Shown piece after piece: positions 1-17,049 of a stretch of DNA of 17,049 nucleotides. The notes beneath the pieces were generated by a model, which searched no databases, was not told the origin of the DNA, and saw nothing but the letters and a program-made list of their open reading frames with translations. A program made the position numbers and the translations under genes. The stretch is from a virus. The stretch lies in UHGV virus genome UHGV-0279031; one strand, 5' to 3'. Numbering within the stretch: the stretch's first letter is position 1; every line of letters begins with the position of its first letter.

Positions 1-123
1 GTTGAAGATCATCGGGGTAAAACGGTTTATGACGTGGCTTCCGGCGACGCGTTATTTATTTCTGAACTCGGTCCGTTACCGGAAAATGTTACCTGGTTAT
101 CGCCGGAAGGGGAGTTTCATTAG
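1..123 (+). pseudogene. tfa: Tail fibre assembly protein (Tfa) internal fragment, running off the window start and ending at TAG 121-123
   Basis: Frame 1 translates [40 protein letters not shown], which closely matches the middle of lambda Tfa as I recall it. Orientation is opposite to the tail genes. The ORF track reports a different frame (2..205) that shows no such similarity. Confidence 0.55.
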
Positions 124-172
124 TTCCGGCCAGCAGATTATAAATTTTTATGGTCCGTGGTTGTTCACTCAT
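89..172 (-). pseudogene. tfa: Tfa N-terminal fragment (first 19 codons), then unrelated sequence and a stop
   Basis: ATG at 172-170 sits 12 nt downstream of the fibre-tip ORF stop. Translation [19 protein letters not shown] matches the lambda/Rac Tfa N-terminus, then diverges (TPLPAITR*) at about 116, where the opposite-strand tfa fragment ends. Confidence 0.5.
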
Positions 173-183
173 TCTGAATGCCA

Positions 184-1110: not shown

Positions 1111-1448
1111 CAGATCACCACTTCGTCAAACTGACACGAAAAATCGGTATAGGTGATATGTTCTGTCGCTGACCACGTTCGACACACCACTCTGATTTTT
1201 CTGTTAATACCCGGCGGGCGCCAAAAAAAAGATTTATAGCCTTCATGCCGGGCTAAAAATTTTTCAAATGAATCACGTTCATTCGCCTCAACTTTGAAAT
1301 CACAGGTGAAAACGCGCAGAGAATGATTAAGTCCATTTGGACTTCGTTGCTCATAACCATCACCAAATCTTACAGTTTTTATCGATGGTTTATTTTCTGT
1401 TTTCATTCCATCCTCTGGTAACCAGTGAAATTCTTCCGTATTAGCCAC
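1110..1448 (-). CDS. M: Minor tail protein, lambda gpM-like
   Basis: 112 aa; the motif [16 protein letters not shown]...[16 protein letters not shown] resembles lambda gpM; sits between tape measure and gpL-like gene as in lambda (H-M-L). Confidence 0.75.
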
Positions 1449-4400
1449 TTAACATTCCCCCATCACGTCGCATATTTAACAGATTGCCCTGCACCCGCTG
1501 ATCAACCATCCCCATAAGTGCTTTTATTGCCTGAGGGCCAATCTCTCCATTCTGGCCGTCATTTTGAATAGTGATTTGGTATACAGGGGCATAGGTAATA
1601 TCTCCGCCTCCATTACCACTTTTACTATTAATAGCTCTGACACCAAGAGAACCATCGGAAGTTCGTGTTAATGGCATAATGGCTTCCGGTCCAGCCTCAC
1701 CAAAAACACCAGCCCCTTTTGCAAAAGCAAAAAATTGCGGGGAATCATAAATACCGTTCGAATACGTGCTCAATGACGGAGACTCATAAACACCGCCCTT
1801 TGCATTCGGAATAAATTTACTAATAGCACTCCCGATAGTTCCTAAAATCCCCCCAGAAGAACTGTTACTAATGCTGTCGATAATCCCAGTAATTGAAGCC
1901 TTTAATGCTATTCGACTAAGATCCGAAATCACGGAAGTAGCGAAAGAACGAAAATTTGCCTTGCCTGTCGTGACAAAATCACCCAGCGCATCGGTCATCC
2001 CATCAAACATCTGAGTCGTGGTTGATTTTATCTGCTCACTGATATCCTTAGTGTCATCCAGCCAGTTATTGAATCCCTGGGAGGCACCACTAACCCAGTC
2101 TCCTGCCTGAATATCGAGCTGCTCGTTTTTCTGTCTGACAATTTCTTTTTCCCGTTCCAGAGCATCATTCAGAGCCTGCATTTTCTCTTGAAAAACATGA
2201 TCTGACATTCCACGGGATTTATCTGCATAGTCACGTTCAAGTTGCAGACGCTGATTGTTATATCCATGTTCAATCCGCAGTAATTCCTGCTGGCGTTGCT
2301 GATTTTTATCGCCAACCCCATAACCAGCAATCTGAATATCATACCCCTGCTGACGATTATCAATCGAAGCCTGCAATGAATCACGCCATGCTGTTATTTC
2401 GGCGGATTCCTTGATTAGCCTGTTATTTTTTTCAATCGCAACATTTTTCTCCATCAACGTGGTTATTTCTTCCCGGTGTAAGAGAAGCGATTTCTGATCC
2501 TGGGTTAATTTCGATGATGGTCGTGACTCTAGGTCGGCAATCCGCTGACGCCACTTAACCAGTTCCTGTTCAGAGGAACTTAATTTAACGGTCAACTCAG
2601 CTTGTGAACTTAGTAACGCATTCTGTTGATTCAGATGATCAATCATTCGTTGGGCTGCATCATCAGAATAACCTTTCGCCTTTGGTTGCTTTGGATCTTT
2701 ATAACGCTCATTTATTTGAGCGATAAGATTATTATATTCTTCCTTTGAATACTGATTCTTTAGCTTTTCCAGTTTTGCAAGTTCACTAGCTCTCTGCTGC
2801 TCCCGGGTCTGATATTGTTTTGAAAAGGCATCTGCTCTCTGTCTGAGTTCAATTCCTTCCTGTTGTCGCTTGTTGTAATCGTTTATTGATGAATTTAGTA
2901 CGTCCTGAGCAATTTTTTCTGCTTGAAGTACGCCCAATTGCTGCTTTAATCGTGCCAGCCTTTTATTTTGAGCTCCGCCATCTCCAATGCCACCTAACCC
3001 GAAAACTCCGGGTCGGGTATTTTTTTCTATTTCATCAATTTGACGGAGAACATCTGAGATTTTTTGATCAAGGGAGGCCTCACGGCCAATATCCAGCATG
3101 GAATCCCATGCCCATTTTGCGGAGTCTGCGACAGCTTTCCATGCAGTCTCAAGATAACCAAGATTTTCTTTAATCTGGTTGGTGCGCTGGATCATTGAGG
3201 ATGAGTATTCTTCTGTCGCAATGCGGGCGGCCTCCTGCTGGTTCCCTTCATCCTGTAGCGCCTTAATCTGGTTATAAGTCGCAAGTGTCAGAAAATGGTA
3301 CTGATCATTAAGTTTTGATATGGCACTGACAGGATCCTTTGCAATTTCATTGAAGTCATTAACCAGTTGTTCGGTTGATATTCCTGTTACTTCGCTCGTT
3401 TTTACTATCGCTGTCGTCACTTGCTCCAGCGAACTGCTCGCTACCTTTCCCGAACGCACAAGCTGATTTAATACTGCCGCCGCAGCACCAGTTGTCGAAT
3501 CAGCCGCATTCCCGGCACGTTGAGCTATATCGCCCAATTGCCCGCTGGTTGTCCCCAACTGATTTCCGGTAAGAATAAGAGATTTATTAAATTCGTCCTG
3601 CTCCTGAGAGCCTTTATAGTAAGCCAGTCCTAAGACCCCAACGGCTGCTGCGGCCAGGGTAAAAGGATTAATTAATCCCAGCACATAAGAACCTACACCT
3701 TTGATCGCCGGGCCAATCCCACCGAACATATCTTTTAGCTGGCCGCCCTGCTGCATTAACACCATAAATGGCGACTGACCAGTGGACAACCCAACAACAA
3801 TATCCGTCATTTGTGCAGGCAACATGCGCATAGCAAAAGCCGTTTGTTTTGCCGACATTCCGGTTTTGCTTAATTGTGATTGAGTAACCTCAAGCTCACT
3901 CCGCATAGCACGAAGTTTTCCAGAAAGCTCCTCATACATTTCAGGAGAAAGCATCCCCTTAGCTTTTGCTTCATTGAGCTGTTTCTGTTGTTCTACCAGA
4001 CGATTAAAAGCAGTTCCGACAGGATCAAGTTGAGCAATCAGACGTTGCAAAGCAACAACCTGTTCATCATGCGCTTTTGCTGCTTCTCGCTCTGCCTGAG
4101 CCTCTCCGGTAAGCTCTCGCCGTGTTTCCTGTATTTTTCGGCTATAATTCTCAAACTGAGAACCATTTATTTTCCCGGATGCAAACGCAGCATTAAGTTC
4201 ATCATGCTGTTGTTCAAGATTTCTTAGCGCCGCAGCCAGAGGGTCGATCTTGTCCAGCATTCTTTGAAAGGCCTGAGCCTGCGCTTCCTGCTGGGCGGCA
4301 GCAAGTTTTCCGGCCTTCTCGGCTTCTCTCTGCGCTTGCGCAACCCCGCTCAATTCCTCTGTGGTTTCATTAAGTTTACGGACAAGAAATTCATATTCTT

Positions 4401-4674
4401 CTTTATCAATAAGCCCTTTATCGAAAAATTTCTTTAATTCAGAATAGCGTCGACCGACAGTATCAATTGCGGCACCAACTGGATCAATAGCTGCTTTTAA
4501 TTTTGCGAGCGCGTTCTTCTCATCTTCTGTTGCCTTAGTCACTTTCCCTGCGCTATTTGCAGCAGTTTCCCCAGCCTGCGTCATTTTGACTAATGAGGAG
4601 GTCAGATTGTCAGCATTATTTTTCGCTCCAGTGCTATCAATAATTATTGCGAGACGCGAGGTTTGCTCTGCCAT
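1441..4674 (-). CDS. Tail tape measure protein
   Basis: 1077 aa; long coiled-coil-rich N-terminal part, central hydrophobic Gly-rich segment ([42 protein letters not shown]), position immediately upstream of gpM/gpL. AGGAG Shine-Dalgarno 10 nt upstream of the ATG. Confidence 0.85.
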
Positions 4675-4689
4675 TTATTAAAACTCCTG

Positions 4690-4719
4690 ACAACAAAAAA
4701 CCCACCGCGAAGTGGGTTT
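4690..4719 (-). terminator. Intrinsic-terminator-like hairpin between the GT chaperone and the tape measure gene
   Basis: Minus-strand RNA: AAACCCAC-UUCGCG-GUGGGUUU (8-bp stem, 6-nt loop) followed by UUUGUUGU. It ends about 18 nt before the tape measure start codon. Confidence 0.4.
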
Positions 4720-4839
4720 CAGGCGACATAATAGTAGATATAGCGATTACGAGGCCACGCAATGCTTTTCTCCAGGAGCATCATCGATTTAATTAAAGAC
4801 ACCATCACATCTCTGTAACAGAGTGTACGTAATTAACAA

Positions 4840-5609
4840 CTACACACACTGCTCCTGAAAATACTGGTCATCCAGTGCAAAGATCACTGCTTCAAATTCA
4901 TCGCGCTCAATCAATACCGGATGAGTGGCTAAATATTCATTTATCTCTGTCAGAGATAAAGGCAAAGGCACCCCAGCCATTCCAGCATAACGTCGGGCAC
5001 GGGATATTACCGAATAGGCGTACAACAACTCCTTAAGCACCGGGTCTATTTCTGGTTCCGGTATCGGTGGCAACCTGAGTTTTTCTCGCTTCCATCTTGC
5101 CTTTTCCCCCCTTTCTCCCCCGAACTCCGATAACCACCGCTGGGCAGCTATGGCTTTTTTATCGTATCCTGCTTCTGCTGCTCTTTACCCTGGGCGATGC
5201 TGGCTGCTTCTGCAAGGATCTGCCAGTACAACTCTGGATTCTGCTTAAGCAGCGCGATCCCTCGTTCTGCCGTATATTCCAGTGCAACCTCAACACCATT
5301 AACCAGTTCACCAACCCCTTTCCAGTCTTTCAGCAGATAACGAGCGGCATTATCAATGAGTAAATCATCAACAGAATCCACCTCGGAAACCTTTGAAATA
5401 TCAAACTCCTTCGTTCCGACGTGCAAACTGGCATCCATTTTCTCAATGTGGCGACGGATTAATGCATTACGGGAGCGATACTGATCGTTATCGCTGCTTG
5501 CCACCAACAGTTTTAACCCGTCTACAGGTTTTAAGTCCTTCATTGGCGTAAACCAGCGTTCTCCACCAATGATAATTTTCTGATTAAGAATAAACATCCA
5601 TAACCTCAT
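4840..5609 (-). CDS. Tail assembly chaperone GT-like fusion product made by programmed -1 frameshift
   Basis: The -1 frame from the slip site is open with no stops and joins the 77-aa ORF 4840..5073 (…GEKGGKGKMEAREKLRLPPIPEPEID…). This is the same arrangement as lambda G/GT. Confidence 0.6.
5148..5609 (-). CDS. Tail assembly chaperone, gpG-like
   Basis: 153-aa ORF immediately upstream of the tape measure module; ends in the slippery heptamer A_AAA_AAG followed directly by TAG. Start could instead be the ATG at 5597 (GAGG 6 nt upstream). Confidence 0.65.
   Translation of the reverse strand: MRLWMFILNQKIIIGGERWFTPMKDLKPVDGLKLLVASSDNDQYRSRNALIRRHIEKMDASLHVGTKEFDISKVSEVDSVDDLLIDNAARYLLKDWKGVGELVNGVEVALEYTAERGIALLKQNPELYWQILAEAASIAQGKEQQKQDTIKKP
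5154..5160 (-). other. Programmed -1 ribosomal frameshift slippery heptamer A_AAA_AAG
   Basis: Minus-strand sequence GAT ACG ATA AAA AAG CCA TAG: a canonical X_XXY_YYZ heptamer positioned two codons before the gpG-like stop. Confidence 0.6.
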
Positions 5610-5657
5610 TCAATGCGTCCCCCTGTAGGGCAGTACCACAGGAGGAATAACGGAAAA

Positions 5658-6231
5658 TCAACTAATCGCCTCAGCACTGGCTTTTGCGATCACGGCAGCC
5701 GGGGAATTTTTTTTTCTGGTTATCGTAGGTGCTTCATCTGCTGCGGTAACCTGACGAGCCAGAGCAGCATCAGAAAGATCATCTTTAACACCAAACGGCG
5801 TTGTCCCTGCGGTTCCCACGGCGCGGGAAGCACCGAAATACAACGCACCAAGATCAGCCTCAACCTCGTTTGCAAGGGCGCGAAAAGCCTGCTTGAACTG
5901 ATCAGCCAGAATGGTGTTGTAAGTCCCTGAAGGGCCAAGAGCCAGTTGTTCTTCACCATTCCATTTAACCGGTGCCATTTTGGATTTAGTAATTTTTACA
6001 TCAACAGTGCCAATATTTTGATCACCGGTATTCGGAGCTGACGGCCCCGGTACGATATCTTCGGTTTTCGCCTCAGGCGCAACTGGCGCGGTTACCGTCT
6101 GATCTTTTGCTGCGGCGTCAGCTTTTGCGTTTTTTGCTACCGCAGGGATAAAACCTACCTGCTCACGGGATACAACATCCAGGGCGGTATAAATAGTCGG
6201 GATCAACCCGGTCAGGGTATTTCCAGCCATA
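5658..6231 (-). CDS. Hypothetical phage structural protein (191 aa) in the slot between scaffold and tail chaperone
   Basis: ORF with AAGGA Shine-Dalgarno 10 nt upstream of the ATG at 6231 (MAGNTLTGLIPTIYTALDVVSRE...). The ORF-track start at 6323 is less likely. No family recognised; too short for an HK97-fold capsid protein, compatible in size with a tail tube protein. Confidence 0.3.
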
Positions 6232-6328
6232 ATTAAATATTCCTTAAAAATTTGCGTAATTGTGAATAGATGGAGTAATGAGCTATCCAGCCCTGACACC
6301 AGCTCCCATCCGGAAGCTGACAAATGTG

Positions 6329-7093
6329 TTAATCAACGATTGTGATACCGTCTTTCAATGCGTTTTGCTTACCTGCAACATCCAGTGCATCAAAAGCAGA
6401 GCGTTTCATCGTTTTCTGACCAATATCATGCTGTGTCGGACGGGAGCCGCCGCCATTGTTGCCACTGGCTTTCAGGATGTAGTCTTTCTGAGGGTAATTT
6501 TCGACAAGGAACTCCAGCGCCTCATCAAACTGCGCCAGTTCGCCAGGCTTCGCGCGGGAATAAATTTTGTTGCCGGAAGCGTCATAAGCAACGATCCTCC
6601 CTTCTTCCACTTTGAATGCCTGCCCGAAGCGGGCTTGTAATAAATCTGCCGGGATCGCAATTTTATCGGCAATATATTTTGAACCCGCAAAACTACCGCC
6701 AATCATAGAATCGTAAAGCTGCTTCTCCAGCATCTGAGAGCGTTGCTTTTCTTCATCTAATTGCTGCTGAAAATTTTTCGTAATTTCTGCCTTAACCTGG
6801 TCAACCTGTCCCGCATCGAGCAGCTTTTTCTGGTCGATTTTTGACAGCATTTCCAGTGCCTCGATCGCCTTCTTCGGGTCTTCGATAGCGGCAAACTTAG
6901 CCAGTTTTTCCTCTGCAGCTTCTTTAGCCAGGCGATGATTTTTTGCCTCGCCATTAAGCTCTGTAATTTTTTTTGTCGCCAGCGGTGCATCGAAGCCAAT
7001 TTCTTTACCATCGTCGTGCACATAAACTGGCAGGCCAGCAGTATCAATTTCTGCGTATTGTTTTCCGTTAATCTCGACCGTTTTCAGTTTCAT
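6329..7093 (-). CDS. Probable head scaffolding protein
   Basis: Start MKLKTVEINGKQYAEID; long charged helical, probably coiled-coil, middle section (AKEAAEEKLAKFAAIEDPKKAIEALEMLSKIDQKK...QQQLDEEKQRSQMLEKQL); follows the portal and MuF-like genes. The upstream extension in the ORF track (7094..7165) overlaps a terminator-like hairpin and was trimmed. Confidence 0.45.
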   Translation of the reverse strand: MKLKTVEINGKQYAEIDTAGLPVYVHDDGKEIGFDAPLATKKITELNGEAKNHRLAKEAAEEKLAKFAAIEDPKKAIEALEMLSKIDQKKLLDAGQVDQVKAEITKNFQQQLDEEKQRSQMLEKQLYDSMIGGSFAGSKYIADKIAIPADLLQARFGQAFKVEEGRIVAYDASGNKIYSRAKPGELAQFDEALEFLVENYPQKDYILKASGNNGGGSRPTQHDIGQKTMKRSAFDALDVAGKQNALKDGITIVD

Positions 7094-7150
7094 ATTAGTA
7101 CCTGGTTTAAGTCTTCCGACAGTTACGCTGCTCACCATCCGGATCGCAGC

Positions 7151-7177
7151 AATAAAAAAGGCCACCCGAAGGTAGCC
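7151..7177 (-). terminator. Terminator-like hairpin in the MuF-like/scaffold intergenic region
   Basis: Minus-strand RNA GGCUACC-UUCG-GGUGGCC (7-bp stem with one G-U pair, tetraloop) followed by UUUUUUAUU. Confidence 0.35.
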
Positions 7178-7197
7178 TGTTGTAATAAATGATTTAT

Positions 7198-8313
7198 TTA
7201 AATCCCTGCTTTTCTGAATACCTGTGCATCACGCTCACGGAGCTGCTTCAGCGTCAGCCATTCGCCTTTATCGGTGTAAAATTCATCTGGCGACATACCA
7301 CCATCCCGAATCAGCTTTGCTCGGCTTTCCCCCACAATCTGTTTTTGTCTGGTGTAAGGCTGACGCAAAAACCATTCCCTGTAGGTTGTATCTCCGGCCA
7401 CCACGCCATCCATGCTGGCCCGCTCAGCCGGGGAAATATCGCGAACATCAATACCCAGTTCCTTCGCTGATTTCAGAATGAACGTTTCCGTTGAGCGGCA
7501 GCAGAAATGAATTTTTCCCGGCCCCTGCAAATAAGGCACGCTGTGACCTACAGGTTTATTATTCAGCGTATATTTGAGGCGATCCCTGATTCGACATTGT
7601 GGCGTAGTACGATTATCAAGCGTTGATAACCATTGCTTACCCTTAATCAAATCATTATTCGCGCTGGCAAAACTCTCACGGGCAGTAGCAGCAAGATGTC
7701 CAACCGCTGTTTTTGCAATGCTGGCCGCATTAGCCCGGCTCATCTGCAATGCACCATCCTGAAATCCCTTACTGACATGTCCCCGAATTTTTCTTGCGAT
7801 CTGCTCATTGGTATCCCCCAGCAAAAAACCCTGACGCACTGTATTTGTTATGCGTCTGAGCCGATCCGCCTCAAGATCTGAGGTCCACTCACTGAGCAGT
7901 CGTCCCTGGAATGGTCGCGCCATTGCAGCGGCATAAAGTGCATCAGGAGAGATACCAACCAGAGGGTGAACATCAGCAACAAAATCAGGTAGCATAGAAT
8001 CAAACAGACTTAACTGATAACCAGCCTCATAAATTGCCAGCTCGTTCAGCTCTCCGGAGAGACTGGTAAACATGCTGTTAATAGCAGTGCGGTTAACCTC
8101 TCTGACGCTCGCCAGAAGTGACTCCAGGCGCTTAACGGTAAAACTACCTGGATCGAGGCTGTCCAGTGCTATCAGCAGGCGAGCAGTAAGTTCCGCATCG
8201 CTGTCATTCAGTATTTTCACCATTCTGGCAGCCACGCCAGTGCTATAGCGGGATATCCAGACTGCATGAGCAATTGATTCATCACGCAGCCGTTCATTCA
8301 CGGTTTGCATCAT
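7198..8313 (-). CDS. Head morphogenesis protein, phage Mu F-like / SPP1 gp7-like minor head protein
   Basis: 371 aa directly downstream of the portal gene; contains a ...GKIHFCCRST... segment resembling the conserved His/CRC motif of MuF-domain proteins. Confidence 0.5.
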   Translation of the reverse strand: MMQTVNERLRDESIAHAVWISRYSTGVAARMVKILNDSDAELTARLLIALDSLDPGSFTVKRLESLLASVREVNRTAINSMFTSLSGELNELAIYEAGYQLSLFDSMLPDFVADVHPLVGISPDALYAAAMARPFQGRLLSEWTSDLEADRLRRITNTVRQGFLLGDTNEQIARKIRGHVSKGFQDGALQMSRANAASIAKTAVGHLAATARESFASANNDLIKGKQWLSTLDNRTTPQCRIRDRLKYTLNNKPVGHSVPYLQGPGKIHFCCRSTETFILKSAKELGIDVRDISPAERASMDGVVAGDTTYREWFLRQPYTRQKQIVGESRAKLIRDGGMSPDEFYTDKGEWLTLKQLRERDAQVFRKAGI

Positions 8314-9700
8314 TGATTTCCATCAGCATTACACTCTGATTTTTTAATTCATCGATCACTTCCTCTGGACGGGAATCCTGATCGATAAATTTCAACGCCT
8401 GCAACACCCGAACCGCATCAATCTGACGTATATCACCGCCCTGACGCAATGACTGAACAGCCAGCGCGGAGGATGAGTCAAACACCTGGGCAGATACATC
8501 CAGTTCAGTGCGCACATCCACATTGCCACCGCAACTCTCTCCGATCCATTCCGCCATTATCTGGAGAATATTATCGAGGGCATCTTCGAGGGAGTTCGCC
8601 ATTGTATAAAGCGGCGAGTTTTCCTGCATTCGCTCTTCATTAGTCTGATCAACAGATTTGGTGGATGTATTTTCAGCACGCAGAAGTTTAGCGCCGGCAT
8701 GACGCATCTGATTTTCCAGCTTCTCAAGTGATGTTTCGCCAGATTCTATCGCTGCGCCACTATGTTCAACATATTCGAGGCCATTTTTTGTTCTGTCCTC
8801 AAAAATCGTAGCGGTGGATGCACCAACCGTCAGTTCTTCATTCCTGTCCAGCCCGTAGGCCACCAGCAATGGAACGCGGGCAACATGAAGAATATTGTCC
8901 TGCTCGCTCTGGCTTTGCCAGTGCTTGATATTCAGCAAGCCAAGATTAAGCAATGGCGGTGTACCACGCATAAATCCTGTTTTCTTCGTGTACAGTGTTA
9001 CCAGAGGAATATCATCACGGCTGGTATTCCATGACTCATGAAGCGTCCAGACAGATTCGCCATTAGTGCCTTCGCTACGTCGATAAATTTCAACTCGACG
9101 GGGCATAATATGGCGGATCTGCTCCACCTTCTTCTGCCCGAAATCATCACCATCAATAATGATGACCTCTTTTATACGCAAATCAGTGAGAACAACTTTC
9201 CCTTTTTCAACTTTCGATTTCCATCCAATAACCTGGCGTGGATTCAGCATCGTAACGTACGGACGACCACCGGTCGCGTTTTCATCGGCTTTTGTCCGAA
9301 TCTCTTTCATATCCGTTCGTGGATAGTCCACCAGCGCATGTGCCACACCATACTGAAATGCGAGGCTGAAAAATTGCTGTGCCCACACATCCAGTCGGCT
9401 CCCCTCCATGTCGATATTTTCTGCATATTCCCTGATTTTTGCCGGCGTTTCCTCACTCAATACTGTCGGCTCTGCAAATATGCGCCCAATATTTTGCTTG
9501 ATGCTTTCTTCATACACAGGAAGTAGCGTAGCCACAGACAGGCGTTTTTTATAAGCGTCTTCATCTTCGTTAGGCCATTTTGGGAGATAATTTTCCCCCT
9601 GCCTGCGCATTTCAAGCGTACCGCCCATCAGTGCGTCGTTAATATCCCACGCCTCCAGCATATCGTTATAGTCGAGGTTGGGTGTTGATATATCAGCCAT
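8294..9700 (-). CDS. Portal protein
   Basis: 468 aa, acidic; lies between the terminase large subunit and the MuF-like gene, the canonical portal position. No motif-level confirmation possible by eye. Confidence 0.6.
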   Translation of the reverse strand: MADISTPNLDYNDMLEAWDINDALMGGTLEMRRQGENYLPKWPNEDEDAYKKRLSVATLLPVYEESIKQNIGRIFAEPTVLSEETPAKIREYAENIDMEGSRLDVWAQQFFSLAFQYGVAHALVDYPRTDMKEIRTKADENATGGRPYVTMLNPRQVIGWKSKVEKGKVVLTDLRIKEVIIIDGDDFGQKKVEQIRHIMPRRVEIYRRSEGTNGESVWTLHESWNTSRDDIPLVTLYTKKTGFMRGTPPLLNLGLLNIKHWQSQSEQDNILHVARVPLLVAYGLDRNEELTVGASTATIFEDRTKNGLEYVEHSGAAIESGETSLEKLENQMRHAGAKLLRAENTSTKSVDQTNEERMQENSPLYTMANSLEDALDNILQIMAEWIGESCGGNVDVRTELDVSAQVFDSSSALAVQSLRQGGDIRQIDAVRVLQALKFIDQDSRPEEVIDELKNQSVMLMEINDANRE

Positions 9701-9702
9701 AA

Positions 9703-11013
9703 TTAAATCCGAAGTGATGTGACTCTTCCGGTCGGTTTGACAATAGGGAATTGCTTAACGATGAAATAACCTCCGGCATCATTCGGGTGATCATTGCCAG
9801 ATTTTTTATCAGGCTCCCCCTTCTCATCCCAGACCTGTTGCTCCAGAGATTCGGCATATAACGGGCAACGCTTCACATTAACTTTATAGCGACGCTCACC
9901 ATTGGCATTGCAGAACATTGCATTCATTGAGTTAACGCGATCTTTTACTGGCGGGTTCGAGCTGTTCACCACAACGTTAAAACCAGCCTACTTAAGCTGG
10001 GCTATATCCGTCGTACTTGCGTTACTTGATTTTCTGGAATCCCCGGAAGCATCTGGATAAATATAAATTTCCCTCACTTTCCGGTAATCATTCCCATCAT
10101 ACAGCCAGAAGCGTTCTTTAATGATGCGGATCATATCCGGCGTATCGTAGGCATTGATGATTTCAGTTACCGCACATGGAAGCCCCAAACGCAGCACATG
10201 GACGATTCCCGCCATCTTTCCAACGTTAAAATCCATCCCAATATAAATCGGCTCCCCTGGCTGCTCCACTTCTTCGCAATTATTCAGTTTCCGGTCAAAC
10301 TGATGGTAAACAGTACCACTTGTCAGGTTAGTAAACTGTCCTCGAAGATAGGCTTTAATCAGCTCTGGAGGGTATGATTCAAGAAGCGAAGGAATGTAAT
10401 CTGCTGGCAGGTTCTTTTCATTATCGAAAGTAGATGCCTGCACCAGACCATACAGTGAGGCCAGCTCTGTTTTTTCACGCACGGCTTTAACAAACTGCTC
10501 GTAGACAAATTTGAATCCTTCCGGCGTGGTTGTAACGTCAATACCGTTGCGAAGTCCATCAATCTTATAACGCATACGTGCAATTATCTTGCGCCACGCC
10601 GTTCTGGCTTTTTCCTTCGGCAAAATGTCCAGTTCATCCACCAACGCATTACCAATTTTGAAACCGACGATCGTTTGTGGCTTCTCCATCGATCTGCAGA
10701 TAGTGGTTCCCCGATACTGGCGTCCGTAATAAAAGTGAACCTCTTTATTTCCCTCATTAATTTTTACGTTCAATCCCCAGTCAGCAGCAACTTCTTCCAC
10801 TGTAGGGTAAAAAATATCGCGAATTTGGGGATACGTTGGCGCAAAATATCCCTGATTTATACCTGGATGCTCCCAAATCCCCTTGCATATGCCGCCACAC
10901 CCAACCCATGTTTTGCCCGAGCCAAAACCAGCAATATAGGCTTTAAATTTATGGGGCATTGAAAGAAATCGCGCCTGAGGCACATTAAGCGTCGGAGAGA
11001 TCATCTTCATCAC
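9703..11013 (-). pseudogene. Terminase large subunit interrupted by a single in-frame TAG (plus-strand 9988-9990)
   Basis: N-terminal ORF (341 aa) has Walker A GFGSGKT and a nuclease-domain start (IYIGMDFNVG). The 89-aa ORF 9703..9972 is in the same frame and ends with NDHPNDAGGY, which looks like a terminase nuclease C-terminal motif. Only TAG plus five sense codons separate them (...DIAQLK*AGFNVVVNSS...). Confidence 0.7.
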
Positions 11014-12079
11014 TCCTTACTCTGGCATCAACCACATTAATATTGATCGCCACAGGCTGGGGATATTCATTATCTTCCACCGTTTCGATCTCTTTGCGCA
11101 GCTTCTGGTTTTCCATTCTGCGCCGTTCAATTTCCAGTTCCTGTAGCCGCTTATCTGCACATAAAGCCCCGCCAGCAGAAAACAAACGCAACAATTCACG
11201 CCGGGCGGCAGCCTTATCCTCCAGCAGGATCTCAACGCCGAATTTTCCGAATTTTGCCCCTGCATATAATTGCCGCGCATCCCCATCAAGCAGAGTGGTA
11301 TCAGCCATATAAAGCTGTCCCGTTTCCTCACCGCAGCACTTCGGGCAGTCCGGATTGGGTATGGCGTTATCAACAAAGCCGAGGCCTCCATATTCCGGTT
11401 CGGGTTTGCCATCTCTGGAAGCCTGCGCCGCTGCCTTGTCGAATTCTGCTATATCGCGCCACTGGTAGAGATGATTCTCGCCCCAGCAATAACGGCAGTT
11501 AACACGGCGAAATTGTGCAAGCTGATTGGGGTCGGCCAGGACAATAGCCATCAACTGACTCACTAGTAAATCCAGGTCTGCGGTATAGCGTTTCTGGTAC
11601 TGATTGCGGAAGTAGCTGATAGCGCGAAAAACCCTGGCATTTCTAAGCATACGACTGGCGTTGCTGTTAGCTGTCGCACCTTGCCCCTCATAACCGGCTA
11701 GTCGGTACGCCTCTGTCGGCTTTTTACCCTGAGCAACAAGCATCGCAAACTTAGCCTGCTGGTCAGAAATGCCGAATTCATCGGGACAGAACGAAAATTC
11801 CTCCGCGTCGCCCTCATTCAGGCCCGCATCGAATACTGGCTTTTTTTCCTGAGATTTTTCGTTCCGCTTTTGTGCAGTCTGCGCAGATTTTTTCTGCGCA
11901 CTTTTTTGCGCAGTTTTGCACATTTCTGTCTGCGCATTTTTCGGAGTTTTTTTGATGTAACGACGGGCTGTTGCGTAATTCAGTCCCCTTGCTTCACACC
12001 ATGCCACCGGAGATATACCGGAGCGGGTGTATTCAGCAATATACTCCTGCTGCAACGCCCCCCAGTCCGGTCTGCTCAT
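10985..12079 (-). CDS. Putative terminase small subunit / DNA-packaging DNA-binding protein
   Basis: 364 aa immediately upstream of and overlapping the terminase large subunit; N-terminal HTH-like segment, Cys cluster (CRYCW...CPKCC), basic AQK-rich stretch. Larger than a typical small subunit, so the call is positional. Confidence 0.4.
   Translation of the reverse strand: MSRPDWGALQQEYIAEYTRSGISPVAWCEARGLNYATARRYIKKTPKNAQTEMCKTAQKSAQKKSAQTAQKRNEKSQEKKPVFDAGLNEGDAEEFSFCPDEFGISDQQAKFAMLVAQGKKPTEAYRLAGYEGQGATANSNASRMLRNARVFRAISYFRNQYQKRYTADLDLLVSQLMAIVLADPNQLAQFRRVNCRYCWGENHLYQWRDIAEFDKAAAQASRDGKPEPEYGGLGFVDNAIPNPDCPKCCGEETGQLYMADTTLLDGDARQLYAGAKFGKFGVEILLEDKAAARRELLRLFSAGGALCADKRLQELEIERRRMENQKLRKEIETVEDNEYPQPVAININVVDARVRSDEDDLSDA
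11881..11946. repeat. Array of TGCGCA-like palindromic hexamers, each followed by a T-tract, inside the 5' part of the terS candidate
   Basis: TGTGCA 11881, TGCGCA 11890, TGCGCA 11905, TGCGCA 11917, TGCACA 11927, TGCGCA 11941; spacings of 9-15 bp; T4-7 tracts between them. Confidence 0.6.
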
Positions 12080-12082
12080 CAG

Positions 12083-12334
12083 TTAGTCCTGATTTTTATC
12101 CACCCTGAGTAGTTCGCGCAGAGCAAAGGCATCCCCTTTTCTGGCAAGCTTAAACAATGCCGCTCGTAACTCGGCTTCACCTTTCGCTCTGCCCTTACGG
12201 ATGGCCGCATAAAAATCTGTCATTGCTTCCCGATTTTCTTTCAGTCGGTTCAGATCAACATCCAGAACGTCAGCGATTTGTTGTGCAGTCATCCGGCACG
12301 CTGCCAGAGACTCGACTTTCGAATACGGAATCAT
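12083..12334 (-). CDS. Small helix-turn-helix-like protein (83 aa)
   Basis: GGGGGTGA Shine-Dalgarno 3 nt upstream of ATG 12334; contains MTAQQIADVLDVDLNRL, an HTH-like segment; tightly packed immediately upstream of the terS candidate. Confidence 0.4.
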   Translation of the reverse strand: MIPYSKVESLAACRMTAQQIADVLDVDLNRLKENREAMTDFYAAIRKGRAKGEAELRAALFKLARKGDAFALRELLRVDKNQD

Positions 12335-13220
12335 TTGTCACCCCCATTGATATGCAGGGTGTCTTCTTCCTGTATTTTTCGTGAAGGATTTTTACTGCAG
12401 CGTTGTTCCAGGTGACCTGATGGTGAATGCGTTTATGACTGGCACCCATAAGTGAGATTTTTACGCACGACGGCGCATACATGACGGAGTAAAAACTTTT
12501 AACGTAGGTTCCGGAATCCAGATACAGCTCGGTCATTCCGCCGCTGTTTTTCTGCGTCTGTTTCTGCCCTAACTGGACAGCACCGATCGTCATAAACAAT
12601 TCACCACAGCGACCGAGATTCGTGTACGTATTCACATCCTCGTTAATGCGCCCCATGAATGAGAACGGTCGATCAACCGAACAGATAAAGCTGTTCATTG
12701 CCTTGCGTTTCACCCACGAAGCATGGCCGCCATTGTCACCAAGAAAATCCCCGCCCTGCGACATAGCGATGGAAAGAGCAGGTATTGATTCGTAGTACGC
12801 AAGCATTTCAGAAAGGATCTCATCCAGTTTCCTTATCGGGAAATAGGCCTGGTCATAGTTGCGATCCACCCGAAACTGGAACTCGTGATAATCATCATCG
12901 AGCTGAATGAAGTATTTACACCCGACCAGTTTTGCCTGGTCGAAACAGGCATTACGGGCGTAAAAAATTGAGCGGCGGTCACTAAAATTATCGGCTTCGT
13001 CAAAACGACTAGCAATATCGGCTTTGGAAAATACCAGCACCTGTTCACCAAATTCAGCCATGTACTGATGCCGTGTCTTATCTTCATCATCAACAACGAT
13101 AAAAATTTTCCCGGTATAGCCAGCACGACGCAACGTCCGGTAAGTCAGAACTTTGTCCGGTCGCCCGTGAGTCAGAATAAAGGCGCAAAAATCATCACGC
13201 ATATTCCTCCTCCCCGCCAT
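12270..13220 (-). CDS. Uncharacterised enzyme-like protein with two acidic clusters (VVDDED, QLDDDY)
   Basis: 316-aa ORF; start overlaps the ParB-like gene stop (alternative ATG at 13202 preceded by GGAGGAGG). Strand-then-acidic pattern AFILTHGR...IFIVVDDED...YFIQLDDDY resembles DxD-type nucleotide-dependent transferases, but this is motif-level inference only. Confidence 0.3.
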   Translation of the reverse strand: MAGRRNMRDDFCAFILTHGRPDKVLTYRTLRRAGYTGKIFIVVDDEDKTRHQYMAEFGEQVLVFSKADIASRFDEADNFSDRRSIFYARNACFDQAKLVGCKYFIQLDDDYHEFQFRVDRNYDQAYFPIRKLDEILSEMLAYYESIPALSIAMSQGGDFLGDNGGHASWVKRKAMNSFICSVDRPFSFMGRINEDVNTYTNLGRCGELFMTIGAVQLGQKQTQKNSGGMTELYLDSGTYVKSFYSVMYAPSCVKISLMGASHKRIHHQVTWNNAAVKILHEKYRKKTPCISMGVTNDSVFESRVSGSVPDDCTTNR

Positions 13221-13983
13221 GCATGATCTCCACCATGCGCTGCGTCATTCGGACAAATCCATTTTCAATAGCCTGCTGATAATCAATGATCACCAGCGCC
13301 GACTCCTCGAAAAGGCACTGAATTTCAGCGGGGGCATGAGCGTAATAGTCCGCAATTCTGCTGAAATTAAACACCGTGTGACGTTCTGCTGCACACAGGA
13401 GGAATTTCTCAATATCAGGATCAAGGGACGCCGAACGTATCCGGCTGATCAGCTCCTGAGTTTTCGTATCGTCGTACAGTTCACTGATATCCGGTTTACC
13501 GCCTGACGGCTCATAAACAGGCGTATCAATTTTCGTCGTATACGGCTCCTCCTCATTTCCTGTACCGGGCAAAACATCCGTCAACAGTTCATCAATTTCT
13601 GCCGGGATGAAGCCTGTCAGGGAGACATCAAAATCAGCATTGATTAGGTCCGACAGCTCCATCCGCAACAGATCTTCATCCCAGCCAGCATTCATCGGCA
13701 GGCGATTATCTGCCAGGCGGTACGCCTTTTTCTGCTCATCCGTCAGGCCAGACAGAACAATGACCGGAACAGAATCCATTTTGAGCATTTCAGCCGCCAT
13801 AACACGACCGTGACCCGCAATAATTTCGCCCTTTTCGTCAATCAGCACCGGATTAGTCCAGCCGAATTGCTTAATACTTTCTACCAGTTGTGCCACCTGC
13901 TCAGTACTGTGCGTCCTGGCGTTGTGCGCATACGGTGACAATTCTTGTAATGGGCGATAGACTATCTTTAATTTCTCGCTCAT
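13195..13983 (-). CDS. ParB/sulfiredoxin-like N-terminal domain protein
   Basis: 262 aa; N-terminal region with ...PVLIDEKGEIIAGHGRVMAAEML..., a DGxHR-like ParB-fold motif; this is the position held by ynaK in Rac-like prophages, directly after trkG. Confidence 0.55.
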   Translation of the reverse strand: MSEKLKIVYRPLQELSPYAHNARTHSTEQVAQLVESIKQFGWTNPVLIDEKGEIIAGHGRVMAAEMLKMDSVPVIVLSGLTDEQKKAYRLADNRLPMNAGWDEDLLRMELSDLINADFDVSLTGFIPAEIDELLTDVLPGTGNEEEPYTTKIDTPVYEPSGGKPDISELYDDTKTQELISRIRSASLDPDIEKFLLCAAERHTVFNFSRIADYYAHAPAEIQCLFEESALVIIDYQQAIENGFVRMTQRMVEIMHGGEEEYA

Positions 13984-13998
13984 ACAGCCTTGCTTTAT

Positions 13999-14034
13999 GA
14001 ATAAAACGCACCCCAGCAGCCAGTGCTACTGGGG
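13999..14034 (-). terminator. Possible terminator downstream of trkG
   Basis: Minus-strand RNA CCCCAG-(12-nt loop)-CUGGGG followed by UGCG-UUUUAUU; the loop is longer than typical, so the call is weak. Confidence 0.3.
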
Positions 14035-14120
14035 GCGGAGGTGTTGCTGGTAAAGTTAGGTATTGGATCAATGAGCGAGTCAACATAATATTAAACTCAC
14101 AATTATAAATCAGCCATATA

Positions 14121-15578
14121 TTAGGAGCGCCAAAAAAAACCTGAAAACAATATAATAACAGGATAAATTTCAAGGCGACCAAGAATCATAGCTATGCACA
14201 TTAAATATTTTGCAATGTCATTAAGCACTCCGAATGACGATGCAGTAGCCCCAAAACCTAATCCCATATTATTAATACATGCAGCCACTGTTGCAAATGA
14301 TGTAAGAAAATCATATCCCATACCATTTAACACCAGTATAAAAAACACCGTGAAGAGAGTATAAAGAAAAAAGAAACTCCATACAGACCTCATTACACGA
14401 TCTGTAACTATCTTCCCTCCTACATTTACACTCAACAACGCTCTGGGATGAGAAAGCTGATTTATCTCGTGTTTGCTTTGTTTGAAAAGTATAAGAAATC
14501 GAAGTGACTTAATTCCACCACAGGTTGAACCTATACATCCCCCAAAGAAACTTGACAACAGCAAAAACACTATCGTGTGCGTGGGCCAGTTTGCATAATC
14601 CTGCGTAGCTAAACCATTATCAGTGAGCATGGAGCTGGCAAGAAAAAACGAATGAATAAAACTTCCATGCAAGTCATACATACCTATATGCCAGACCTGG
14701 AAAGAGGTAACAATGATCACCCCTAAGGCTATTAACAGAAAGAAACGAAGTTCAATATCTCTGATTAAAGGTTTTATCGTTTTTCTGCTAATAACAATAT
14801 ACCAAAGAGTGAAGTTGAAAGCCGATAGCAGGGAAAAAGAACCAGCCACCAGCTCAACCAAATAGTTATTAAAATATCCGATACTCTCGCTATGAGTTGA
14901 GAAACCACCAAGCGAAACTGTGGAAATCCCGTGACAAATAGCATCAAACAAAGGCATTCCTGCAAGTCTATAACAGACAATACAAGCAATACCTAATAAA
15001 GAATAAGTTATCCACAGTGTCCGTGACGTATCGGCCAGGCGGGGAGTGAGTTTGTCATCCTTAAATGGCCCCGGCATTTCTGACTGATAAAGCTTTGCAC
15101 CACCAATACCCAATAATGGCAATACTGCAACCGCCAGAACAATAACTCCTAAACCACCTATAAAATTTAACTGTGACCGATAGTACAAATATGCCCGAGG
15201 TAATGAACTAACATCATCAATTACAGTTGCTCCTGTTGTTGTTATTCCAGAAACCCCTTCAAACAGAGCATCAATGAACGTTAAATTAAGTTCTGAGTCA
15301 ATCCATAAAGGGAATGCACTAATAACAGAAAACAAAATCCAAAACATTACAATTATAATAAACCCATCACGGGTACGTAATTGAATGCCAGATTTCTTAG
15401 TTGTATACCACGCTCCGCCACCAATGCAAAAAAATATAACGAAAGTTATAAAGAAAACGAACAGGCTTTTTTCTTTATAAAACAATGCTACAACCATTGG
15501 TGGCAACATTGAAAGACTATAGAGCCAAACCAGGAACCCACACATATGAGTAACAACTCTTACATGAGATGTATTCAT
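14121..15578 (-). CDS. trkG: Trk-system potassium uptake membrane protein TrkG (TrkH/TrkG family)
   Basis: 485 aa from ATG 15578 (MNTSHVRVVTHMCGFLVWLYSL...), matching my recollection of E. coli Rac-encoded TrkG; many hydrophobic segments; markedly AT-rich relative to the flanking phage genes. The ORF track starts 18 nt upstream at a TTG. Confidence 0.85.
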   Translation of the reverse strand: MNTSHVRVVTHMCGFLVWLYSLSMLPPMVVALFYKEKSLFVFFITFVIFFCIGGGAWYTTKKSGIQLRTRDGFIIIVMFWILFSVISAFPLWIDSELNLTFIDALFEGVSGITTTGATVIDDVSSLPRAYLYYRSQLNFIGGLGVIVLAVAVLPLLGIGGAKLYQSEMPGPFKDDKLTPRLADTSRTLWITYSLLGIACIVCYRLAGMPLFDAICHGISTVSLGGFSTHSESIGYFNNYLVELVAGSFSLLSAFNFTLWYIVISRKTIKPLIRDIELRFFLLIALGVIIVTSFQVWHIGMYDLHGSFIHSFFLASSMLTDNGLATQDYANWPTHTIVFLLLSSFFGGCIGSTCGGIKSLRFLILFKQSKHEINQLSHPRALLSVNVGGKIVTDRVMRSVWSFFFLYTLFTVFFILVLNGMGYDFLTSFATVAACINNMGLGFGATASSFGVLNDIAKYLMCIAMILGRLEIYPVIILFSGFFWRS

Positions 15579-15715
15579 ATCTAAATATTCTTTCAATTAT
15601 AACCACCTTGCTGCAATATTATGATTATACTGTATAAAATTTAACTCCTCTTAGATCTTACTTCACTGTTCCTTATGAAACAATCATCAAAATGAATCAT
15701 ATTGTAGTTAAGATT

Positions 15716-16180
15716 TTACTTTAAACACTGCTCGGTTATGTATTGCTGAGCACCTTCAAGTTGGGCCTGCATCATTACCAGTCGTTCCCGGAGGGTGAAA
15801 TAATCCCGTTCAGCGGTGTCTGCCAGTCGGGGGGAGGCTGCATTATCCACGCCGGAGGCGGTGGTGGCTTCACGCACTGACTGACAGACTGCTTTGATGT
15901 GCAACCGACGACGACCAGCGGCAACATCATCACGCAGAGCATCATTTTCAGCTTTAGCATCAGCTAACTCCTTCGTGTATTTTGCATCGAGCGCAGCAAC
16001 ATCACGCTGACGCATCTGCATGTCAGTAATTGCCGCGTTCGCCAGCTTCAGTTCTCTGGCATTTTTGTCGCGCTGGGCTTTGTAGGTAATGGCGTTATCA
16101 CGGTAATGATTAACAGCCCATGACAGGCAGACGATGATGCAGATAACCAGAGCGGAGATAATCGCGGTTACTCTGTTCAT
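15716..16180 (-). CDS. Rz: Rz i-spanin
   Basis: From ATG 16180 (ATGA overlap with the endolysin stop) the translation [60 protein letters not shown]... is near-identical to lambda Rz. Confidence 0.9.
15775..15960 (-). CDS. Rz1: Rz1 o-spanin lipoprotein, embedded in the +1 frame of Rz
   Basis: [52 protein letters not shown]: signal peptide, lipobox VVGC and proline-rich body, as in lambda Rz1. Confidence 0.9.
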
Positions 16181-16674
16181 TGCTGACCCCACAAACAGAT
16201 TTCACGCTCAATCTCACGACGAGTCATGAGACCTTTCCATTGCTTACCGCCAGCATATGTCCAGCGACGTAGCTGATCACATGCGCCTTTGATATCGCCC
16301 TGGTTTATTTTGCGAAGAAGCGTCGATGTTCTGAAATTGCCAGCACCCACGTTGTAAACGAATGAGTAAAGAGCGCCGCGCGTTGTTTCCGGTATATCGA
16401 CTTTGATGTACGGGTTAATTTGTCTGGCGACAGTGGCAAGGTCTTTATTCAAGAGTGTTTTGCATTCTGCTTTGGTATACGTTTTACCGAGCATGATGTC
16501 TTTTCCTGTATGCCCGTGACATACAGTCCATACACCAACAATATCTTTGTATGGTATGTAGCTGACACCTTCCAGACCATCGTTACCACTTGGGCCAGTG
16601 ATTAACACTGATGCTATAGCAATTGCTCCGCCACCAATAGCAGCAGCAACGGCTTTTCGTAATGATGGAGGCAT
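16177..16674 (-). CDS. R: SAR endolysin, P21 R-type (T4-lysozyme-like glycoside hydrolase)
   Basis: [57 protein letters not shown]...: Gly/Ala-rich signal-anchor-release N-terminus plus E/D/T catalytic residues; near-identical to phage 21 endolysin as recalled. Confidence 0.9.
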
Positions 16675-16745
16675 TATTCACCTCTCGCAGCCTTGCGCTT
16701 ATCTTCTTTAATCTTGAAATAAAGGTTTGTCAGGTACGTCAGCAG
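16674..16745 (-). pseudogene. Holin remnant: only the C-terminal ~23 codons of a P21 S-type pinholin
   Basis: C-terminus ...[23 protein letters not shown] matches the S21 pinholin C-terminus; stop overlaps the endolysin ATG (TAATG). The N-terminal 40 codons of ORF 16674..16865 are the antisense reading of a duplicated endolysin fragment, not holin. Confidence 0.6.
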
Positions 16746-16748
16746 GCC

Positions 16749-16842
16749 GTGGGTGCTGGCAATTTTAGAACATCGACGCTTCTTCGCAAAATAAACCAGG
16801 GCGATATCAAAGGCGCATGTGATCAGCTGCGTCGCTGGACAT
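16749..16842. repeat. 94-bp inverted duplicate of an internal endolysin segment (partner 16257..16350), 2 mismatches
   Basis: The reverse complement of 16749..16842 equals 16257..16350 except at two positions (compared base by base). Confidence 0.85.
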
Positions 16843-16948
16843 ACCTTCCAGACCATCGTTACCACTTGGGCCAGTGATTAACACTGATGCTATAGCAATT
16901 GCTCCGCCACCAATAGCAGCAGCAACGGCTTTTCGTAATGATGGAGGC
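16843..16948. repeat. 106-bp perfect direct duplicate of the endolysin 5' end / SAR-domain coding region (partner 16567..16672)
   Basis: Identical string accttccagaccatcgtt...cgtaatgatggaggc at both sites. The second copy has no ATG; a TAA lies 5 codons upstream in frame. Confidence 0.85.
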
Positions 16949-17049
16949 TGACTCGGAGTCAGTTACGTTTCTGCTTTTTTGCGATACGTTGTATTCCCTC
17001 AATTTACACCCGCTTTGTCTGCGAGGTGGGGTTATGAAATTCATGGATA

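What the first reader, a model, noticed from the sequence alone, without database searches (positions are those of the whole stretch)
16257..16962. Scrambled lysis cassette: holin 5' portion replaced by direct and inverted copies of endolysin fragments
Upstream of the intact SAR endolysin, only the last ~23 holin codons remain. They are preceded by a 94-bp inverted copy of an internal endolysin segment and, abutting it, a 106-bp perfect direct copy of the endolysin 5' end without a start codon. This pattern suggests a template-switch or recombination event that destroyed the holin; it also creates repeats able to mediate further inversion or deletion. The perfect identity of the direct repeat means an assembly artefact cannot be excluded.
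Basis: seen in the sequence. Interest (0 to 1): 0.55.

Follow-up and report, generated by a model that had tools for sequence, protein, structure and literature searches.

The report
Scrambled holin region: contig-end artefact
The jumbled pieces in front of the phage lysis enzyme gene are really in the sequence, but they sit in the last 300 bases of what looks like a short-read contig that ends inside a repeated prophage region, the other end has the same kind of jumble, and an otherwise identical prophage assembled elsewhere has a normal intact gene there, so this is most likely an assembly or sequencing artefact.

Summary
The repeats are real: a 106-nt perfect direct copy (16567-16672 = 16843-16948) and a 96-nt, 98% inverted copy (16256-16351 vs 16748-16843) of endolysin segments lie upstream of an intact SAR endolysin, and only the last 24 holin codons remain. 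(1) The final 101 nt are the upstream region and start codon of a holin on the opposite strand, and the window stops 15 nt into it. (2) All three pieces match a paralogous DLP12-type cassette at 100%; the inverted piece differs from the adjacent endolysin at 2 positions. (3) The left end of the window carries the same defect: tfa codons 1-23, then an inverted internal tfa piece. (4) Window 116-16748 is 100% identical to a 116-kb scaffold with an intact 71-aa holin, and about 20 sibling assemblies also have intact holin and tfa. Breakpoint A lies inside a 244-nt exact repeat shared by the two cassette types. The left breakpoint lies where five other assemblies end their contigs. No junction occurs in 5,426 complete E. 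coli genomes, IMG/VR, JGI metagenomes or GTDB representatives. Most likely this is a contig-end artefact (about 0.85). A real complex rearrangement remains possible (about 0.08). Interest is low.

The parts
1..119 (+). Left-end fold-back piece. It is tail-fibre-assembly gene (tfa) nt 202-320 in sense on the + strand, inverted relative to the tfa 5' end next to it. It is joined through a 4-nt overlap (TTCA, 116-119).
   Evidence: 100% identical to L004 11128-11246 and L003 2368-2250. In siblings this segment lies 133-251 nt further inside the same intact 194-aa tfa gene.
116..184 (-). tfa nt 1-69 (first 23 codons). This is the start of the part of the window that is collinear with sibling prophages.
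   Evidence: window 116-700 = L004 10995-10411 at 100%. Five other assemblies end their contigs at L004-equivalent 10964-11174.
116..16748 (-). Collinear body of a defective Rac-like prophage. It runs tfa 5' end, gpL::stf fusion, tape measure, truncated capsid, portal/head genes, split terminase, ParB-like gene, trkG, Rz/Rz1, endolysin and holin 3' end.
   Evidence: 100.000% identity over 16,633 nt to L017 (ENA ERZ28591292 scaffold_17, 116 kb); 2-14 mismatches to the six other siblings compared base by base.
15716..16180 (-). Rz spanin (154 aa), with Rz1 embedded at 15775-15960.
   Evidence: PF03245 E=3.5e-53; PF06085 E=2e-19.
16177..16674 (-). Intact P21-type SAR endolysin (165 aa, RrrD-like).
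   Evidence: PF00959 E=1.8e-45. The N-terminal Gly/Ala-rich segment and E35/D44/T50 are read directly from the translation.
16514..16757 (.). 244-nt run that is exactly identical between the Rac-type and DLP12-type lysis cassettes (endolysin 5' end plus holin 3' end). Breakpoint A (16748) lies inside it, 9 nt from its distal edge. The window itself follows this run only up to 16748.
   Evidence: alignment of L017 3900-5400 with L001 2880-4380.
16674..16748 (-). Holin remnant: nt 142-216 of a 216-nt S21/EssD-type holin gene (24 codons plus stop).
16748..16843 (+). Piece 1: endolysin nt 324-419 in inverted orientation. It is the DLP12-type allele.
   Evidence: 100% to L001 3625-3721. Two mismatches (16766 T/C, 16829 G/A) to the window's own endolysin and to L017.
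16843..16948 (-). Piece 2: endolysin nt 3-108 in direct orientation. It lies wholly within the 244-nt segment shared by both cassette types.
   Evidence: 100% to window 16567-16672 and to L001 3409-3304.
16948..17049 (+). Piece 3: 86 nt upstream of a DLP12-type essD holin plus its first 15 nt (ATG at 17035, MKFMD), on the + strand. The window ends here.
   Evidence: 100% to L001 3001-3102. No counterpart upstream of the Rac-type holin in L017.

Best explanation
The window is most likely a whole short-read contig of a defective Rac-like E. coli prophage. Its true sequence runs from the start of tfa to the 3' part of the holin (116-16748). Both of these places are multi-copy prophage repeats where assemblies break. 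The last 301 nt on the right and 115-119 nt on the left were added at dead-end contig tips from chimeric or mishandled reads. They are about 100-nt pieces of the same repeat families, and on the right they come from a paralogous DLP12-type essD-rrrD cassette elsewhere in the genome. Each is joined by a strand switch across 251-397 nt, which is within one library-fragment length. In the real genome the cassette is expected to be an ordinary intact holin / SAR endolysin / Rz / Rz1 operon.

Shown: the anatomy, the paralogue origin of the pieces, the symmetry of the two ends, the repeat context, the intact state in identical and sibling assemblies, and the absence of the junctions elsewhere.

Inferred: that the window equals a contig, and the exact way the pieces were added (polymerase fold-back chimeras in the library, read pairs treated as one read, or an assembler's end extension).
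For: 1. Both ends of the window carry the same defect. On the right there are three strand-switch junctions within the last 302 nt. On the left there is one strand-switch junction 116-119 nt from the end, in an unrelated gene, tfa. There are no other repeats of at least 40 nt anywhere inside the window.
2. Window 116-16748 is 100.000% identical (16,633 nt) to L017. There the holin is an intact 71-aa PF04971 protein directly upstream of the endolysin. All 10 loci show intact holin, endolysin and Rz. Searches show an intact 194-aa tfa wherever the contig continues.
3. The pieces are not copies of the neighbouring gene. Pieces 1-3 are each 100% identical to one DLP12-type cassette (L001). Piece 1 has 2 mismatches to the window's own endolysin. 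Piece 3 is DLP12-type upstream sequence not found at the Rac-type locus.
4. Breakpoint A lies inside a 244-nt exact repeat between the two cassette types. The left breakpoint (L004-equivalent 10995) is bracketed by the contig ends of five independent assemblies (10964, 11050 three times, 11174), whose ends are normal and collinear. In 93 of 210 index blocks the longest contig carrying this prophage's terminase is only 10-20 kb, the size class of the window.
5. All four junctions switch strand, with only 1, 2, 1 and 4 nt of overlap. The jumps are 397, 311, 303 and 251 nt.
6. Junction sequences are absent from 5,426 complete E. coli genomes, 50,697 phage records, IMG/VR, JGI metagenome contigs and GTDB representative genomes. 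The chimeric ORFs are not on record among 153 billion gene positions.
Against: No reads were available, so coverage and pair orientation across the junctions could not be checked. The source record and assembler were not identified, so 'window = whole contig' is an inference.

A plain de Bruijn or overlap assembler should not create joins with 1-4 nt of overlap by itself. Chimeric input molecules or reads, or a faulty extension step, must therefore be assumed. Three consecutive chimeric joins within 300 nt is unusual even for an artefact.

Absence from other assemblies is also what a private, recent mutation would show.
Confidence: 0.85

Rival explanations
1. This is a real, private complex rearrangement in this strain. 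Serial replication template switching (FoSTeS/MMBIR-like or snap-back) or break repair patched about 100-nt segments, templated from the paralogous DLP12-type cassette, into the Rac-like prophage. That destroyed the holin 5' two-thirds and left a SAR endolysin without its pinholin.
For: All junctions switch strand over a few hundred nt with 1-4 nt of microhomology, a geometry also produced by template switching. The pieces are error-free copies of genuine E. coli sequence. The prophage is already decayed, with two deletions and a split terminase shared by a lineage, so loss of the holin would be tolerated.
Against: An independent second event of the same odd type would be needed in tfa, and both events would have to lie within 120-302 nt of the window ends. 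The templates are from a different locus, yet the jumps are measured within that locus, which is hard to reconcile with local fork switching. An assembly identical at every one of 16,633 collinear bases has the intact arrangement. No second occurrence exists in any collection searched. The breakpoints coincide with repeat boundaries where assemblies break.
Confidence: 0.08
2. The sample contained chimeric DNA molecules at appreciable frequency, for example from strand-displacement whole-genome amplification or PCR-mediated fold-back. The assembly then reports a molecule that really existed in the tube but not in the cell.
For: Inverted joins over short distances with minimal microhomology are the typical product of strand-displacing polymerases (own knowledge of MDA chimeras, not tested here). 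All 4 junctions are inverted.
Against: This overlaps the best explanation and differs only in where the chimera arose. Nothing in the sequence shows that amplification was used. Three joins in 300 nt is more than a typical single chimera.
Confidence: 0.05
3. This is a homologous-recombination product between the Rac-like and DLP12-like lysis cassettes, that is a chromosomal inversion or hybrid prophage.
For: The two cassettes share about 95% identity and a 244-nt exact run. Piece 3 belongs to the DLP12-type locus.
Against: Homologous exchange would give a collinear hybrid cassette with an intact holin. It would not give three non-homologous strand-switch joins with 1-2 nt of overlap. It also does not explain the tfa end.
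Confidence: 0.02

Closest known systems
P21 / DLP12-type lysis cassette (pinholin S21/EssD, SAR endolysin R21/RrrD, Rz/Rz1), as in Rac-like prophages that carry trkG
   Same: The endolysin (PF00959, N-terminal Gly/Ala-rich signal-anchor-release segment, E35/D44/T50), Rz with embedded Rz1, and the holin C-terminal tail are all present in the canonical order. They are 95-100% identical to annotated essD-rrrD-rzpD loci.
   Different: In the window only the last 24 holin codons are present. Siblings, including one that is 100% identical, have the full 71-aa holin.
Contig-end misassemblies at repeat boundaries in short-read assemblies
   Same: The anomaly is confined to both termini. It lies in multi-copy prophage repeats, is made of sequence from paralogous copies, and is absent from independent assemblies of the same locus.
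   Different: The joins have almost no overlap and alternate strand, and there are three in a row. This is not the usual k-mer-mediated repeat collapse, so chimeric reads or a faulty extension step have to be assumed.
Replication template-switch rearrangements in bacteria (tandem inversion duplications, FoSTeS/MMBIR-type junctions)
   Same: Strand-switching joins over hundreds of nt with microhomology of a few nt.
   Different: The templates come from a paralogous locus. Two separate sites at the window ends are affected. There is no population or read support. The quasi-palindromic snap-back sites expected for tandem inversion duplications are not evident, with only 1-2 nt of overlap at the three right-hand joins.

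Membership tests
P21-type pinholin / SAR-endolysin lysis cassette | Class II holin of the PF04971 family (about 68-71 aa, two transmembrane domains, dual-start motif) immediately upstream of and overlapping the endolysin start | tested here: not met
   The window keeps only holin nt 142-216, which match PF04971 positions 43-63 of 64. The feature is met in L017 and in all loci.
P21-type pinholin / SAR-endolysin lysis cassette | SAR endolysin: PF00959 lysozyme with a weakly hydrophobic N-terminal signal-anchor-release segment and a Glu-8aa-Asp-5aa-Thr triad | tested here: met
   PF00959 E=1.8e-45. The segment [20 protein letters not shown] and E35/D44/T50 are read from the translation. The SAR function itself is inferred from the family.
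P21-type pinholin / SAR-endolysin lysis cassette | Rz/Rz1 two-component spanin with Rz1 embedded in the +1 frame of Rz | tested here: met
   PF03245 E=3.5e-53 at 15716-16180 and PF06085 E=2e-19 at 15775-15960, nested on the same strand.
Contig-end assembly artefact | The anomaly is confined to the sequence termini | tested here: met
   Junctions lie at 116-119 and at 16748, 16843 and 16948 of 17049. The interior is 100% collinear with L017. That the window is a complete contig is an inference.
Contig-end assembly artefact | The breakpoints fall in sequence repeated elsewhere in the genome | tested here: met
   There is a 244-nt exact repeat between the Rac-type and DLP12-type cassettes. The tfa 5' region is multi-copy, with a median of 3 places per genome, and five other assemblies end there.
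Contig-end assembly artefact | Independent assemblies of the same sequence lack the anomaly | tested here: met
   L017 is identical and intact. The junctions are absent from all collections scanned.
Contig-end assembly artefact | Low or aberrant read support across the junctions | not testable with these tools
   No reads or coverage data are available, and the source record was not identified.
In vivo template-switch rearrangement (FoSTeS/MMBIR, tandem inversion duplication) | Microhomology or short quasi-palindromes at every junction | tested here: inconclusive
   The overlaps are 1, 2, 1 and 4 nt. This is compatible with blunt joining or with minimal microhomology.
In vivo template-switch rearrangement (FoSTeS/MMBIR, tandem inversion duplication) | The inserted segments are templated from the immediately neighbouring DNA | tested here: not met
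   Piece 1 has 2 mismatches to the adjacent endolysin but none to the DLP12-type copy. Piece 3 is absent from the Rac-type locus.

The most novel reading that the evidence does not exclude
The scramble is a genuine, private, multi-step template-switch event. A stalled fork in a cryptic Rac-like prophage copied three alternating-strand segments of about 100 nt from a paralogous lysis cassette hundreds of kb away, with a second similar event in tfa. That would be a bacterial example of chromoanasynthesis-like patchwork between dispersed prophage paralogues, leaving a SAR endolysin without its pinholin.
Probability: 0.06. Interest if true: 0.5.

Novelty: not a real feature. Interest (0 to 1): 0.07.

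Why it matters
If it were real, it would be a rare, well-resolved case of multi-junction template switching between dispersed prophage paralogues in E. coli. It would also be a natural holin knockout upstream of a SAR endolysin.

As it stands, the value is practical. Terminal stretches of a few hundred bases of short-read contigs that end in prophage repeats can carry fold-back patchworks that mimic gene-disrupting rearrangements. Such ends should be masked or checked against reads before they are interpreted. The underlying locus is an ordinary, already well-known lysis cassette in a defective Rac-like prophage.

Tried and rejected
- **Source record via chimeric ORFs.** I looked up six variants: 63, 71, 61, 40, 60 and 62 aa. 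None is on record.
- **Exact junction searches.** Junctions A, B and C were searched in IMG/VR. Junctions A and B were searched in JGI metagenome contigs. Junctions A and C were searched in GTDB representative genomes. All returned zero matches.
- **Megablast of junction-containing queries.** I searched complete E. coli genomes and phage records. No place covers the junctions.
- **A misreading, corrected.** I first read window 1-119 as DLP12 bor-ybcV intergenic DNA because two loci were merged in one file. Searches show it is an internal tfa segment.
- **Simple homologous recombination or inversion between the Rac and DLP12 cassettes.** Rejected, because the joins are non-homologous and a hybrid cassette would keep an intact holin.
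- **The natural Pin/Gin-type invertible tail-fibre segment as the cause of the inverted tfa piece.** Rejected, because the join is inside tfa at codon 23 and siblings have a plain intact tfa.
- **Hairpin-telomere or palindromic ends.** Rejected, because each turn-back skips 251-397 nt instead of continuing directly into its own complement.
- **Literature.** The search for descriptions of this type of contig-end artefact gave nothing usable. The Logan methods (k=31, reads split by fasterq-dump) neither identify nor exclude that pipeline as the source.
- **The idea that read pairs were concatenated into single reads.** This fits the strand switches and the 250-400 nt jumps, but it could not be tested without reads.

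Full report
**1. What is in the sequence**

All lysis genes lie on the minus strand:
- Rz, 15716-16180 (PF03245), with Rz1 embedded at 15775-15960 (PF06085).
- A 165-aa endolysin, 16177-16674 (PF00959, E=1.8e-45). It has the Gly/Ala-rich N-terminal segment and the E35/D44/T50 spacing of P21-type SAR endolysins. The family assignment is by Pfam. The SAR property is inferred from established knowledge of R21.
- trkG downstream, 14121-15578 (PF02386), which marks the element as a Rac-like prophage.

Upstream of the endolysin only holin nt 142-216 remain (16674-16748, 24 codons plus stop). They match positions 43-63 of the 64-position PF04971 model.

These are the only repeats of at least 40 nt in the window:

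| Repeat | Coordinates | Length and identity | Endolysin nt |
|---|---|---|---|
| Direct | 16567-16672 = 16843-16948 | 106 nt, 100% | 3-108 |
| Inverted | 16256-16351 vs 16748-16843 | 96 nt, 98% | 324-419 |

**2.

- *The last piece.* The final 102 nt (16948-17049) are 100% identical to the 86 nt upstream of a DLP12-type essD holin plus its first 15 nt (ATGAAATTCATGGAT, MKFMD). They lie on the plus strand, inverted relative to the endolysin, and the window stops there.
- *Origin of the pieces.* All three pieces are 100% identical to a single DLP12-type cassette (L001, strain RM10042: 3625-3721 forward, 3409-3304 reverse, 3001-3102 forward). The inverted piece differs from the window's own endolysin at 16766 and 16829. 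The last piece has no counterpart upstream of the Rac-type holin. The pieces are therefore not copies of the neighbouring gene. They come from a paralogous cassette.
- *The other end.* The left end of the window has the same kind of defect. tfa nt 1-69 (window 184 down to 116) are followed, through a 4-nt overlap, by tfa nt 320-202 in antisense (window 119 down to 1). This skips 251 nt and turns back.

All four terminal junctions switch strand. Their overlaps are 1, 2, 1 and 4 nt, and their jumps are 397, 311, 303 and 251 nt.

**3. Comparison with related sequences**

The collinear core (116-16748) is a deleted derivative of an intact Rac-like prophage such as L002. It lacks L002 5400-14004 and 19239-22565. 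These deletions are real and shared by a lineage:
- The gpL::stf fusion protein they create (308 aa) is indexed in 41 blocks of the assembly collection.
- The truncated 338-aa terminase is indexed in 210 blocks.

In every sibling locus shown, a 71-aa PF04971 holin sits directly upstream of the 165-aa lysozyme. In one search, tfa is an intact 194-aa gene wherever the contig continues.

L017, a 116-kb scaffold, is identical to the window at all 16,633 collinear positions and has the intact holin at 4116-4331. Six other siblings compared base by base differ by 2-14 substitutions.

**4. Why the ends look like contig ends in repeats**

- The Rac-type and DLP12-type cassettes share a 244-nt exact run. 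This corresponds to window 16514-16757, although the window follows it only up to 16748. Breakpoint A lies inside it, 9 nt from where the two types diverge.
- Piece 2 lies wholly inside the same shared run.
- On the left, five independent assemblies (L010, L011, L012, L020, L021) end their contigs at L004-equivalent 10964-11174. These bracket the window's breakpoint at 10995. Their ends are normal and collinear.
- In 93 of 210 index blocks the longest contig carrying this terminase is 10-20 kb, the size class of the window.

If the window were an arbitrary slice of a longer genome, two independent rare rearrangements within 120 and 302 nt of its two ends would be an extraordinary coincidence.

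**5. Uniqueness**

No place in 5,426 complete E. coli genomes covers the junction-containing queries, and none in 50,697 phage records does. Exact junction strings are absent from IMG/VR, JGI metagenome contigs and GTDB representative genomes. Six versions of the chimeric ORFs are not on record.

**6. Interpretation**

The best explanation (about 0.85) is a contig-end artefact. The true contig runs between two prophage repeats. Its tips were extended by chimeric or mishandled reads made of nearby pieces of the repeat families.

How the pieces were joined is inferred, not shown. The near-blunt, always strand-switching joins across 250-400 nt fit either of two sources:
- fold-back chimeras from a polymerase during library preparation, or
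- read pairs handled as single reads.

A plain graph assembler would not make them on its own, and three joins in a row is unusual. This is the main weakness of the explanation.

The rivals are:
- a real private template-switch rearrangement (about 0.08);
- chimeric molecules that existed in the tube (about 0.05, a variant of the artefact);
- homologous recombination between the cassettes (about 0.02, contradicted by the junction anatomy).

**7. Comparison with known systems and verdict**

Apart from the missing part of the holin, the cassette in the window is an ordinary P21/DLP12-type pinholin, SAR endolysin and Rz/Rz1 operon in a defective, trkG-carrying Rac-like prophage. Both are long known. 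In the real genome it is expected to be intact, as it is in L017.

The scramble fails the test of templating from adjacent DNA that a local template switch would predict. It meets the three testable criteria for a terminal assembly artefact. Read support could not be tested.

Novelty: not a real feature. Interest: 0.07. The decisive test is to map the source reads across 116-119, 16748, 16843 and 16948, or to run a long-read or PCR check.

Noticed in passing
window 1-184: The left end of the window has a fold-back like the one in the finding. tfa codons 1-23 on the minus strand are joined through a 4-nt overlap to an inverted internal tfa segment (nt 202-320). Siblings have an intact 194-aa tfa.
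   Followed up: yes
window 184-1110 (junction at 513-515): An 8.6-kb deletion relative to an intact Rac-like prophage (L002 5400-14004) removes most of stfR, lom, gpJ and the tail-assembly genes. It creates an in-frame gpL::stf fusion ORF of 308 aa. The exact protein is present in 41 index blocks, so the deletion is a real lineage marker.
   Followed up: partly
window 5658-6323 (junction at 5748-5749): A second deletion of 3.3 kb (L002 19239-22565) removes the tail tube, the terminator, the head-tail connector genes and the C-terminal part of the major capsid gene. It leaves a truncated ORF of about 190 aa, so the prophage cannot make particles.
   Followed up: partly
window 9703-11004: The terminase large subunit is split into 338-aa and 89-aa ORFs, against one 433-aa gene in L002. 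The 338-aa product occurs in 210 index blocks, so this is another shared decay mutation.
   Followed up: partly
window 16514-16748 and position 16652: The Rac-type and DLP12-type lysis cassettes are about 95% identical but share a 244-nt exact run across the endolysin start and holin end. At 16652 the window, L016, L017 and L021 carry the DLP12-type base, while other siblings do not. This hints at gene conversion between the paralogous cassettes.
   Followed up: partly
window 14121-15578: trkG, a potassium transporter, is carried as cargo between the lysis cassette and the ParB-like and terminase genes, as in K-12 Rac. This is a known feature and was used only to identify the prophage type.
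   Followed up: no
window 17035-17049; L017 4116-4127: The dual-start motif of the holin differs between paralogues. It is MKFM in the DLP12-type fragment at the window end and MKSM in the Rac-type holin of siblings. L001's annotation starts at the second Met.
   Followed up: no
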